Source: a virus
Taxonomy: Duplodnaviria > Heunggongvirae > Uroviricota > Caudoviricetes
Virus record (IMG/VR): IMGVR_UViG_2541047816_000005
Location: 1-47,623 of that record
Length of the DNA stretch: 47,623 nt
Direction: 5' to 3' (one strand)
A program made the position numbers and the translations under genes. Shown here piece by piece: positions 38,892-39,686 of the stretch (positions within the stretch are counted from its first letter, which is position 1; each line of letters starts with the position of its first letter). The notes under the pieces were generated by a model. That model did no database searches and was not told the DNA's origin. It was given only the letters and a program-made list of their open reading frames with translations.

Positions 38892-39092
38892 CTAACTATT
38901 TGTTTTCCGTAATGGAGAAAAAATGAGGCTCTCTTTAGATAATTTGAGGGTTGGTGAAACTTTAGATACCGCTTCCTCAATTCTTTCAGCCATTGCAACT
39001 GAGGGGCGCCTAAAACCCAGAGCCATCTGGTTCAGGTATGCAACGCTAGTCCCAGATAACTGTGCCAGCCGCCTCCATTCATCCGCGCTCAT
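38892..39092 (-). CDS. Cro/DicC-like small HTH regulator
   Basis: internal start MSADEWRRLAQLSGTSVAYLNQMALGFRRPS...; divergent from the repressor gene; start uncertain. Confidence 0.5.
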   Translation of the reverse strand: MSADEWRRLAQLSGTSVAYLNQMALGFRRPSVAMAERIEEAVSKVSPTLKLSKESLIFSPLRKTNS

Positions 39093-39150
39093 GACTCCTC
39101 TGATTGAGAGCAATACACTGGACATAAAAAACCCCATACTGTATTGGTTA

Positions 39151-39165
39151 TTAGCAACGTGCTAA
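39151..39165. promoter_or_regulatory. palindromic operator-like site TTAGCAacgTGCTAA between the divergent regulators
   Basis: perfect inverted repeat; further TTAGCA half-site at 39168 and palindromic TTAGCTAA at 39210..39217. Confidence 0.4.
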
Positions 39166-39230
39166 CATTAGCACATGAGATCACAATACAGCAATACGCT
39201 GTAAAGCATTTAGCTAACAATGAGACAAGC

Positions 39231-39686
39231 ATGGAAATCAAAGATATTCGCTTAAAAAATCTACAGACGGTAATCCAACGCAGCGGCTTAACCCAGACAG
39301 ATCTGGCGTTAAAATGTGAGATATCACCCTCACTTATAAGCCAAATAATGACTAAGCGCAGAAATATGGGAACTGCTCTCGCTAGAAAACTCGAGGGGCG
39401 ACTGAGCCTATCAGAAGGATGGTTTGACATCCCCCACTCATTGCTGGATTCCCCATGGCATCTAGCTAAAATGAGGGAAAAGACTGGTGAGACCACTATT
39501 GATGAACAGCAACTAACTAAAAGAGAGACTCGACTTATTGAGTTATTCAGACAAATGCCTGAAAGCGAAAAAGACAGGATAATCAGTGAGTTATCTGAAA
39601 AGAAACGTAATTTTGACAAACTACTTGATGAGCTAATGGCTGTTAAAGCATCAAGAATGCCGATCGACAAAGACGAAAATGAATAA
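39231..39686 (+). CDS. DicA-like immunity repressor (N-terminal HTH, DicA-type C-terminal helix)
   Basis: C-terminal RLIELFRQMPESEKDRIISELSEKKRNFDKLLDELM parallels the DicA C-terminus (recalled); start set at ATG 39231 (track start 39144 is TTG inside the operator region). Confidence 0.6.
   Translation: MEIKDIRLKNLQTVIQRSGLTQTDLALKCEISPSLISQIMTKRRNMGTALARKLEGRLSLSEGWFDIPHSLLDSPWHLAKMREKTGETTIDEQQLTKRETRLIELFRQMPESEKDRIISELSEKKRNFDKLLDELMAVKASRMPIDKDENE

What the first reader, a model, noticed from the sequence alone, without database searches (positions are those of the whole stretch)
38892..39686. Immunity switch with palindromic TTAGCA-N3-TGCTAA operators
Divergent Cro/DicC-like and DicA-like genes are separated by about 140 bp containing a perfect 15-bp palindrome, an extra half-site and the palindrome TTAGCTAA. 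The longest-ORF calls would leave only 6 bp between the genes, so true starts must be internal.
Basis: seen in the sequence. Interest (0 to 1): 0.4.

Follow-up and report, generated by a model that had tools for sequence, protein, structure and literature searches.

The report
Prophage lysis-lysogeny switch with predicted operators
This is the repressor/Cro control region of a lambda-like prophage inserted in the E. coli mlrA gene: an ordinary kind of genetic switch, although this version, its repressor family and its binding sites have not been described before.

Summary
TTAGCAACGTGCTAA (39151-39165), an extra TTAGCA (39168-73) and TTAGCTAA (39210-17) lie between divergent HTH genes, and both longest-ORF starts are wrong. 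The window is a whole lambdoid prophage in mlrA, and this is its immunity region.

The leftward gene is a 77-aa Cro (38892-39125) that RefSeq does not annotate. It is 51% identical to phage H-19B Cro and shows no similarity to DicC. The rightward gene (39231-39686, 151 aa) is a chimeric repressor: its HTH domain resembles H-19B cI and its helical C-terminus resembles DicA. It has no LexA-type cleavage domain.

Comparison of nine lineages (52-100% protein identity) shows five positionally conserved 15-bp sites, with conserved AGC-core half-sites and variable central triplets:
- Three lie between the genes (A, D, C). TTAGCTAA is only the right half of C.
They flank or overlap a strong conserved promoter (TTGTCA-17-TACATT).

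A conserved hairpin should block translation of the next gene on read-through transcripts.

No binding was tested, and the repressor's own promoter and the induction route are unresolved. Verdict: a new member of a known kind, of modest interest.

The parts
38892..39125 (-). cro gene (77 aa). It is not annotated in RefSeq.
   Evidence: 51% identical to H-19B Cro. It is 77 aa, the same length as H-19B Cro. The N-terminus MSSVLLSIR aligns without gaps to MSNELLRWR of H-19B and Chronis Cro. In diverged loci there are 28 synonymous-only against 14 non-synonymous codon changes, with a third-position bias. No CDS is annotated there in VR50.
39151..39165 (.). Operator A (OR): perfect palindrome TTAGCA-ACG-TGCTAA, centred on the predicted cro-promoter start site.
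   Evidence: It is invariant in the close clade, where coding DNA is only 78-79% identical. It sits at the same position in distant lineages with other central triplets (ATG, ATA, TTA).
39165..39173 (-). Predicted PR -10 element TAATGT (39170-39165) with an upstream TG.
   Evidence: A T-A-N-N-N-T hexamer lies at this position in all 7 lineages tested. The half-site itself is not conserved in L024-L027. The G-to-A change in L008/L009 falls on the free base of TGnTAATGT.
39188..39202 (.). Operator D (ACAGCA-ATA-CGCTGT). Its left half plus the next base forms the predicted PR -35 element TTGCTG (39194-39189, minus strand).
   Evidence: It is positionally conserved, with its centre 36-38 nt before the repressor ATG. 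The left half NNAGCA is present in all nine lineages.
39203..39217 (.). Operator C (AAAGCA-TTT-AGCTAA).
   Evidence: The half-sites are conserved while the central triplet varies (TTT, TAA, CAT, ATA, AAA, TAT) across nine lineages.
39231..39686 (+). Repressor gene (151 aa): an H-19B-cI-like HTH domain, a disordered linker and a DicA-like helical C-terminus.
   Evidence: The RefSeq start agrees. phrog_5736, E 6e-60.
39721..39735 (.). Operator OLa (TTAGCA-TTT-TGCTAT), centred about 42 nt before the predicted PL start. Its last base is the first base of the -35 element.
   Evidence: Invariant in eight of the nine lineages; L027 differs at one spacer base (CTT). The identical 15-mer is also present in Klebsiella phage Chronis.
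39735..39763 (+). Leftward early promoter (PL analogue): TTGTCA-17-TACATT, with a predicted start near 39770.
   Evidence: The PWM score of 12.6 is among the top 5 on both strands of the window. It is conserved in all lineages.
39746..39760 (.). Operator OLb (AACGCA-TAG-CGCTAC), lying in the spacer and -10 element of PL, 25 bp from OLa.
   Evidence: The half-sites are conserved and the central triplet varies (TAG, TAA, TCA, CAG, TAT, CAA). Chronis has the same 25-bp pair in the same register with its -10 element.
39752..39804 (+). Conserved RNA hairpin. The core stem pairs 39758-39770 with 39786-39798. The 5' arm contains the PL -10 element, and the 3' arm contains the ribosome-binding site of the next gene.
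   Evidence: -23.1 kcal/mol, z -6.8 to -7.2. A strong hairpin is present in six lineages with different stem sequences, with G-U pairs and two compensated pairs.
39799..40242 (+). Partner HTH gene (147 aa), the first gene of the PL operon. It is conserved next to the repressor across the family.
   Evidence: HTH_3/HTH_19. phrog_4836, 'CII-like regulator'. Homologues lie downstream of the repressor in L024-L027.

Best explanation
This is the immunity (lysis-lysogeny) switch of a lambdoid prophage.

Binding sites (inferred). The 151-aa repressor and the 77-aa Cro both carry H-19B-type helix-turn-helix domains. I infer that both bind as dimers to 15-bp operators with consensus (T/A)TAGCA-N3-TGCTA(A/T).

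Lysogeny (inferred from positions):
- Repressor at site A (on the cro-promoter start site) and at D/C (over and upstream of its -35 element) shuts off cro, the replication genes and Q.
- Repressor at OLa plus OLb, 25 bp apart (a spacing close to that of lambda's cooperatively bound operator pairs), shuts off the strong leftward promoter.

Read-through (inferred). Transcripts that run on from the repressor gene can form a hairpin. This hides the ribosome-binding site of the first leftward gene. Transcripts that start at the leftward promoter lack the hairpin's 5' arm and can be translated.

Induction (inferred). The repressor has no LexA-like cleavage domain. Induction is therefore probably not by RecA-stimulated self-cleavage and more likely uses an antirepressor, as for DicA/Rem and the Gifsy repressors. 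Once cro is expressed, Cro occupies the same sites and turns repressor synthesis down.

Shown: the sequences, the homologies, the conservation pattern and the promoter and hairpin predictions. Inferred: all binding, all promoter start sites, cooperativity and the induction route.
For: Context. The window is 100% identical to E. coli VR50. The region lies between the helicase/toprim/QuuD genes on one side and the xis/int genes on the other, and the prophage sits in mlrA.

Proteins:
- Cro is 51% identical to H-19B Cro.
- Repressor residues 1-71 are 39% identical to the H-19B cI N-terminal domain and 36% identical to Chronis gp42.
- Repressor residues 95-139 are 40% identical to the DicA C-terminus.
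- Pfam finds only HTH families in the repressor. The AF2 model shows an HTH domain, a disordered linker and two helices.

Operators:
- At <=1 mismatch there are 2 sites against 0.08 expected.
- Five sites keep their positions in nine lineages. Half-site positions 3-5 (AGC) carry 1.55-1.68 bits over 32 distinct sites, while the central triplet carries about 0.5 bits.
- In the close clade the operators are invariant while the repressor gene is only 78-79% identical at the DNA level.

Relatives with the same HTH types use the same 6-3-6 architecture:
- Chronis has 4 sites at <=1 mismatch against 0.01 expected. These include an OL pair 25 bp apart in the same register with its -10 element.
- H-19B has 3 such sites between cI and cro. 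It is reported to have four OR operators (PMC8065619, citing Shi & Friedman 2001).

Promoters:
- PL scores 12.6 and is conserved.
- The PR candidate is the top minus-strand hit, at the same position, in all 7 lineages tested.

Hairpin.

Short, non-cleaved repressors that are removed by antirepressors are an established class (PMC3121763; bioRxiv 10.1101/2023.04.14.536235). The best fold match is the SPC32H Rep protein of the Rep-Ant complex.
Against: - No binding, transcription or induction experiment exists for this element.
- The repressor's own promoter could not be placed. The two conserved candidates (TGcTAACAT at 39160-68; GTGCTA-17-CACAAT at 39159-87) are weak, scoring 5.1-5.9 at a level where about 5 hits per kb per strand occur by chance. 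Both overlap site A, so it is unclear how repressor synthesis continues while A is occupied.
- OLa sits about 42 nt before the PL start. That is also the classic position for an activator.
- Site D is weak in this window (5 mismatches), and its right half is lost in L024 and L025.
- No antirepressor was identified. There is no Rem homologue. The only LexA box (484-499) precedes a DinI homologue with no further ORF behind it.
- The fold match to Rep is marginal (E 1.9e-4, TM about 0.46).
Confidence: 0.85

Rival explanations
1. The conserved TGCTAA-type blocks are mainly promoter elements (TGnTAA resembles an extended -10 element) of overlapping divergent promoters. They are not protein-binding operators, and the palindromy is a by-product of bidirectional promoter symmetry.
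For: The right half-sites run straight into -10-like hexamers: TGCTAA|TGT, TGCTAA|CAT and CGCTAC|ATT here, TGGTAA|AGT in H-19B and CGCTAA|ACT in Chronis. The 'extra half-site' behaves like a promoter element rather than an operator.
Against: The left half-sites (NNAGCA) are conserved as strongly as the right ones and have no promoter role. The same 15-mer recurs five times with a variable centre. OLa lies upstream of the -35 element, where no core promoter element is expected. Both regulators have HTH domains related to proteins of phages with the same site architecture.
Confidence: 0.05
2. The sites are real operators, but they are recognised by the 147-aa partner HTH protein. The partner is the true maintenance repressor, or the 151-aa protein activates the partner's promoter from OLa at -42, giving a two-repressor system.
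For: The partner gene is conserved next to the repressor in all lineages. OLa is centred at an activator-type position relative to PL. The partner's HTH resembles that of DicA.
Against: H-19B and Chronis have the same operator architecture, and no partner-type gene is annotated next to their cI genes. DicA/DicC-type operators (TGTTAG-N6-CTAACA) are absent from the window. The conserved hairpin should silence partner translation on read-through transcripts, which argues against expression in lysogens. OLb overlaps the PL -10 element, which is a repressing position.
Confidence: 0.07
3. The HTH gene pair is a toxin-antitoxin or other addiction-type module, or a remnant regulator of a dead prophage with no switch function.
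For: There are weak sub-threshold hits to the HigA and MqsA antitoxin models. HigA structures appear among the weak fold matches.
Against: All these hits fall far below the curated cut-offs. No toxin gene is adjacent. The gene order and homology are those of a lambdoid immunity region in what looks like a complete prophage with int, xis, replication, Q, lysis and tail genes. Cro, the repressor and the operators are under purifying selection across genera.
Confidence: 0.03

Closest known systems
Immunity region of Stx1 phage H-19B (cI, cro, OR with four operators; Shi & Friedman 2001, as cited in PMC8065619)
   Same: - Cro has the same length (77 aa) and is 51% identical.
- The repressor's DNA-binding domain is 39% identical.
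- The genes are divergent and separated by 105-113 bp.
- There are several 15-bp 6-3-6 sites with TTA(G/T)CA-type half-sites.
- The last 3 nt of an operator double as the first 3 nt of a -10 hexamer.

   Different: - H-19B cI has a LexA-type cleavage domain (234 aa). This repressor has a short DicA-like helical tail instead.
- The site geometry in OR differs. By my reading H-19B has sites near -17, -33, -50 and -66 of PR. Here they lie near +1, -37 and -52, with only a half-site at -17.
- The half-site consensus here is TTAGCA rather than TTA(T/G)CA.
- H-19B has N downstream of cI. Here the downstream gene is an HTH protein.
Klebsiella phage vB_Kpn_Chronis (MN013086) gp42/gp43 region, which is sequenced but not characterised
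   Same: - The operator consensus is the same (TTAGCA-N3-TGCTAA; 4 sites at <=1 mismatch).
- The OLa 15-mer TTAGCATTTTGCTAT is identical.
- The OL pair is 25 bp apart, in the same register with the -35 and -10 elements.
- Cro is 47% identical over the 77-aa alignment (52% in the tblastn match).

   Different: - The Chronis repressor is a long protein with a GDSM motif, that is, S24-type.
- OR has three full sites in the H-19B geometry.
- A terminator, rather than the hairpin, follows its repressor gene.
DicA/DicC/dicBp module of the Qin prophage, and the Gifsy GfoR-type antirepressor-controlled repressors
   Same: - The layout matches: a short non-cleavable repressor, a divergent cro-like gene, and a same-strand downstream operon with its own operators.
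- The repressor C-terminus is 40% identical to that of DicA.
- This class is removed by antirepressors such as Rem or GfoA (bioRxiv 10.1101/2023.04.14.536235; PMC3121763).
   Different: - The DNA-binding domain is not DicA/P22-C2-like.
- Cro is unrelated to DicC.
- The DicA operator is a TGTTAG-N6-CTAACA type, and none is present here.
- No Rem or Gifsy-type antirepressor gene was found.
IS10 'fold-back inhibition' (Davis, Simons & Kleckner 1985; cited from my own knowledge, not checked here)
   Same: The logic of the hairpin is the same. Transcripts that enter from upstream contain both arms and hide the ribosome-binding site. Transcripts from the element's own promoter start inside the hairpin and stay open.
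   Different: The setting differs: here it lies between a prophage repressor gene and the early leftward operon. The function is untested.

Membership tests
Lambdoid CI/Cro immunity switch (functional class) | Divergently transcribed repressor and cro genes, placed between the replication/late-regulator genes and the recombination/integration genes of a prophage. | tested here: met
   Gene map of VR50 and the ORF list. The prophage ends lie in mlrA.
Lambdoid CI/Cro immunity switch (functional class) | Several related, partly symmetric operators between the two genes (OR), and a second set (OL) at the leftward early promoter downstream of the repressor gene. | tested here: met
   Sites A, D and C, plus OLa and OLb, keep their positions in nine lineages. 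These are predictions from sequence only.
Lambdoid CI/Cro immunity switch (functional class) | The repressor and Cro bind these operators and repress PR, PL and PRM. | not testable with these tools
   This needs EMSA or footprinting and reporter fusions.
Lambda/H-19B-type CI (LexA-like, self-cleaving repressor) | A C-terminal S24 peptidase domain with an Ala-Gly cleavage site. | tested here: not met
   Pfam finds only HTH families in the 151-aa protein. The alignment with H-19B cI and Chronis gp42 stops after the N-terminal domain. The model shows two C-terminal helices.
H-19B-type CI N-terminal DNA-binding domain | Sequence similarity across the HTH domain. | tested here: met
   39% identity over residues 1-71, E 7e-14. 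36% identity to Chronis gp42.
H-19B-type Cro | Full-length sequence similarity and the same size. | tested here: met
   51% identity, E 2e-19. A gap-free 77-aa alignment that includes the N-terminus.
DicA (NCBIfam NF007257 / PRK09706) | A whole-protein score above the curated cut-off (101 bits), including the P22-C2-like HTH domain. | tested here: not met
   39.8 bits, and only the C-terminal residues 85-139 match. BLASTP aligns only residues 95-139.
DicC | Sequence similarity to DicC. | tested here: not met
   No local alignment with E <= 100.
Antirepressor-controlled prophage repressors (Gifsy GfoR/GtgR, DicA-Rem, SPC32H Rep-Ant) | A short repressor with no cleavage domain. | tested here: met
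   Weak sequence and fold matches to SPC32H Rep, 5d50.
Antirepressor-controlled prophage repressors (Gifsy GfoR/GtgR, DicA-Rem, SPC32H Rep-Ant) | A cognate antirepressor gene, often under LexA control. | tested here: inconclusive
   No Rem homologue. The single LexA box precedes only a DinI homologue. An ORF6N-domain protein lies in the leftward operon, but its role is unknown. An antirepressor could also be encoded elsewhere in the genome.
HigA/MqsA-type antitoxins | A score above the family cut-off and an adjacent toxin gene. | tested here: not met
   HigA scores 23.4 bits against a cut-off of 47.7, and MqsA scores 14.6 against 30. No toxin gene is in the neighbourhood.

The most novel reading that the evidence does not exclude
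The cro promoter and the repressor promoter are fully interleaved on the same ~37 bp: each promoter's -35 element lies in the operator that covers the other's start site (A and D). RNA polymerase can then occupy only one of them at a time, so the switch rests on promoter competition. The conserved hairpin adds a second, post-transcriptional layer of immunity. It silences the first early-left gene on read-through transcripts but not on PL-initiated ones, using the same logic as IS10 fold-back inhibition.
Probability: 0.2. Interest if true: 0.45.

Novelty: new member of a known kind. Interest (0 to 1): 0.28.

Why it matters
- It defines a previously unnamed immunity type of lambdoid prophages. 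The type is found in 20 of 5,426 complete E. coli genomes, including O157 and other STEC strains, and in Klebsiella, Enterobacter, Salmonella and Pantoea. It comes with a testable operator consensus, two predicted early promoters and a missing cro annotation.
- It is a clear case of domain shuffling among phage repressors: an H-19B-type DNA-binding domain on a DicA-type tail. This predicts that the prophage is not induced by direct RecA-mediated cleavage.
- The conserved hairpin, which embeds a promoter's -10 element in one arm and the next gene's ribosome-binding site in the other, is a compact and testable device for keeping an early gene silent in lysogens.
- None of this changes how such switches are understood.

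Tried and rejected
Replaced by 39125, because the extra 11 residues align with H-19B and Chronis Cro and are conserved, with Shine-Dalgarno sequences upstream in relatives.
- **Alternative cro promoter TTAGCA-16-TACAGT** (39165-39138). Rejected because it is lost in L010 and L012, and its start site would lie too close to the cro ribosome-binding site.
- **Intragenic operator-like site 39455-39469** (3 mismatches). Not conserved in relatives, so it is treated as chance.
- **Extra half-site B as a true operator half.** Not conserved in L024-L027.
- **DicA-type operators** (TTAG-N6-CTAA). None in the window.
- **Rem homologue or Gifsy-type small antirepressor after the DinI gene.** None found.
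- **LexA box near OR or OL.** None. The only one is at 484-499.
- **Scan of genome contigs with the repressor.** No confirmed relatives, although IMG/VR and the protein database did yield them.
- **Placing the repressor's own promoter.** A leaderless design like the one I infer for H-19B does not fit here, because relatives carry a Shine-Dalgarno sequence. No plus-strand candidate is both strong and conserved.
- **Literature.** Shi & Friedman 2001 and Tyler et al. 2004 are not held. No paper describing these operators was found.

Full report
**1. What is in the sequence**

- the perfect palindrome TTAGCA-ACG-TGCTAA at 39151-39165;
- a further TTAGCA at 39168-73;
- TTAGCTAA at 39210-17.

The longest ORFs on the two strands, 38892..39137(-) and 39144..39686(+), are 6 bp apart.

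A single 6-N3-6 palindrome would not be remarkable in 47.6 kb. This pattern, however, occurs twice at <=1 mismatch (39151 and 39721) against 0.08 expected. The two copies sit in the two intergenic regions that flank the rightward gene. Four of the window's ten TTAGCA hexamers fall in 39151-39726, although the hexamer is under-represented overall. At 2-3 mismatches the counts are at chance level.

**2. Context**

The region is 100% identical to E. coli VR50 and occurs, at >=99.8% identity, in only 20 of 5,426 complete E. coli genomes. The annotation shows a lambdoid prophage:
- On the minus strand lie a hypothetical gene, a DEAD-box helicase, a toprim protein, QuuD, tRNAs and the lysis genes.
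- On the plus strand lie two HTH genes, many small ORFs, xis and int.

The window begins with the first 22 codons of mlrA, and the rest of mlrA follows int. The window therefore spans the whole prophage.

**3. The two regulators**

Cro:
- The leftward protein is 51% identical to Cro of Stx1 phage H-19B (E 2e-19). It shows no similarity to DicC.
- Its start is most likely ATG 39125. The 11 extra residues (MSSVLLSIRGV) align without gaps to MSNELLRWRKE of H-19B and Chronis Cro, giving the same 77-aa length. They are conserved in diverged loci, which carry good Shine-Dalgarno sequences upstream.
- The gene is under purifying selection, with 28 synonymous against 14 non-synonymous codon changes. 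It is not annotated in RefSeq.

Repressor:
- The rightward protein starts at 39231, and RefSeq agrees.
- Residues 1-71 resemble the H-19B cI DNA-binding domain (39% identity, E 7e-14).
- Residues 95-139 resemble the DicA C-terminus (40% identity, E 2e-10). The NF007257 score is 39.8 bits against a cut-off of 101.
- There is no S24 peptidase domain.
- The AlphaFold model (pLDDT 75) shows a helical HTH domain, a disordered linker (71-92) and two C-terminal helices.
- The best match in PDB, by sequence and by fold, is the Rep repressor of the Salmonella phage SPC32H Rep-Ant complex. Both matches are weak.
- The family is small. It has 25 clusters across Enterobacterales, all named only 'helix-turn-helix domain-containing protein'.

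**4. Operators by comparison**

IMG/VR loci and contigs carrying more distant homologues give nine lineages with 52-100% repressor identity. In the close clade the repressor gene is only 78-79% identical at the DNA level, yet several intergenic blocks are invariant.

Five 15-bp sites keep their positions in all lineages:

| Site | Position | Sequence in this window |
|---|---|---|
| A | centre 73-74 nt before the repressor ATG | TTAGCA-ACG-TGCTAA |
| D | centre 36-38 nt before the ATG | ACAGCA-ATA-CGCTGT |
| C | centre 21-23 nt before the ATG, abutting D | AAAGCA-TTT-AGCTAA |
| OLa | begins 37 nt before the conserved TACATT (centre 30 nt before it) | TTAGCA-TTT-TGCTAT |
| OLb | overlaps TACATT | AACGCA-TAG-CGCTAC |

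Over 32 distinct sites, half-site positions 3-5 (AGC) carry 1.55-1.68 bits, and the central triplet carries about 0.5 bits. Conserved half-sites around a free centre are the expected signature of sites for a dimeric HTH protein.

- TTAGCTAA is not conserved as such. It is the right half of site C.
- The extra half-site is lost in the distant lineages.

**5. Relatives with the same HTH types have the same site architecture**

- Klebsiella phage Chronis has four sites within 1 mismatch of TTAGCA-N3-TGCTAA (0.01 expected). They include an OL pair 25 bp apart whose first member is identical to OLa here, in the same register with TTGCCA-17-TAAATT.
- H-19B has three TTA(G/T)CA-N3-TG(A/C)TAA-like sites between cI and cro. 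It is reported to have four OR operators (PMC8065619).
- DicA/DicC operators are of a different type (TGTTAG-N6-CTAACA). None is present in the window.

This points to the H-19B-type domains of the 151-aa protein and Cro as the binders, and away from the DicA-like HTH of the downstream 147-aa protein.

**6. Promoters**

- **PL.** A simple sigma-70 weight matrix gives TTGTCA-17-TACATT (39735-63) a score of 12.6. Only 5 hits on both strands of the window reach 12. It is conserved in every lineage. With a start near 39770, OLa is centred near -42 and OLb near -17.
- **PR.** On the minus strand, TTGCT(G/A)-17/18-TA(A/G)(T/C)(G/A)T is the best hit, at the same position, in all seven lineages tested, with scores of 7.9-10.2. 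Its -35 element lies at 39194-89 and its -10 element at 39170-65. Its start, near 39158, falls at the centre of site A, and its -35 element lies inside site D.
- **PRM.** The repressor's own promoter could not be placed. The two conserved candidates are weak, and both overlap site A.

**7. Hairpin**

The segment 39752-39804 folds at -23.1 kcal/mol (z about -7). Six lineages have an equivalent hairpin with different stem sequences. These include G-U pairs and two compensated pairs, which favours an RNA role on this strand.

The 5' arm contains the PL -10 element, so transcripts that start at PL lack it. The 3' arm covers the ribosome-binding site of the 147-aa gene, and in distant lineages its AUG as well. 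No terminator was found between the repressor stop and PL. I infer that read-through transcripts from the repressor gene cannot be translated into the 147-aa protein. This parallels IS10 fold-back inhibition (my own knowledge, not checked here).

**8. Induction**

Without a cleavage domain, the repressor probably follows the DicA/Gifsy model, in which an antirepressor removes it (PMC3121763; PMC7380047; bioRxiv 10.1101/2023.04.14.536235). I could not find the antirepressor:
- There is no Rem homologue.
- The single LexA box (484-499) precedes a DinI homologue, with no ORF behind it.

**9. Verdict**

The region is an ordinary kind of system, a lambdoid immunity switch, in a version that has not been characterised. 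The useful additions are the corrected cro gene, the full operator set including OL, the two early promoters, the chimeric nature of the repressor and the hairpin. All binding and regulation remain predictions.

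Noticed in passing
window 38892-39125 (-): The cro gene is missing from the RefSeq (PGAP) annotation of VR50, although it is conserved and under purifying selection. 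A 39-aa ORF just downstream (38765-38884, minus strand) is also unannotated, and I did not evaluate it.
   Followed up: partly
window 39752-39804 (+): A conserved hairpin whose 5' arm contains the PL -10 element and whose 3' arm contains the ribosome-binding site of the 147-aa gene. It can form only on transcripts that enter from the repressor gene. The logic resembles IS10 fold-back inhibition.
   Followed up: partly
window 39799-40242 (+); L024 3068-3550, L025 3069-3494, L027 3070-3540: A 141-160-aa protein with an unknown N-terminal domain and a C-terminal DicA/P22-C2-like HTH always follows the repressor. [quoted passage not shown] L026 carries a shorter, 129-aa homologue with no Pfam hit at 3060-3449. 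Its role in the switch is unknown.
   Followed up: partly
window 484-499 and 515-763 (+): A perfect LexA box core, CTGTACATAACTACAG, lies behind a TTGACA-type promoter and directly before a DinI-family gene (Pfam E 6.7e-17) at the prophage end next to mlrA. In Gifsy prophages a dinI homologue heads the LexA-controlled antirepressor operon. Here no further ORF precedes the terminator-like hairpin near 850-882.
   Followed up: partly
window 222-290 and the window end (int, about 46351 onward): The prophage is inserted in mlrA (yehV). The first 22 codons of mlrA lie at the window start and end in a stop codon. The rest of the gene follows int in VR50.
   Followed up: yes
L003 (Klebsiella phage Chronis) 1511-1550 and 2369-2432: Chronis carries the same operator consensus. 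Its OL 15-mer, TTAGCATTTTGCTAT, is identical to OLa of this window, although its repressor DNA-binding domain is only 36% identical and it has an S24-type C-terminus. This raises the possibility of partial cross-immunity or of a shared OL/PL recombination module.
   Followed up: partly
L023 (E. coli K-12 Qin) about 11920-11933: Directly before the dicA start codon lies TTAGCA-TT-AGCTAA, with the same half-sites as here but a 2-bp spacer. DicA, H-19B cI and this repressor all begin ME-x-K. This could be a relic of a shared recombination joint or simply chance.
   Followed up: no
window 31820-32071, 32901-33983 and 34171-34554 (coordinates converted from VR50): According to the VR50 annotation the prophage carries three tRNA genes (Arg, Arg, Ile), an OmpC-family porin gene and a QuuD-type antiterminator, between the replication and lysis modules.
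   Followed up: no
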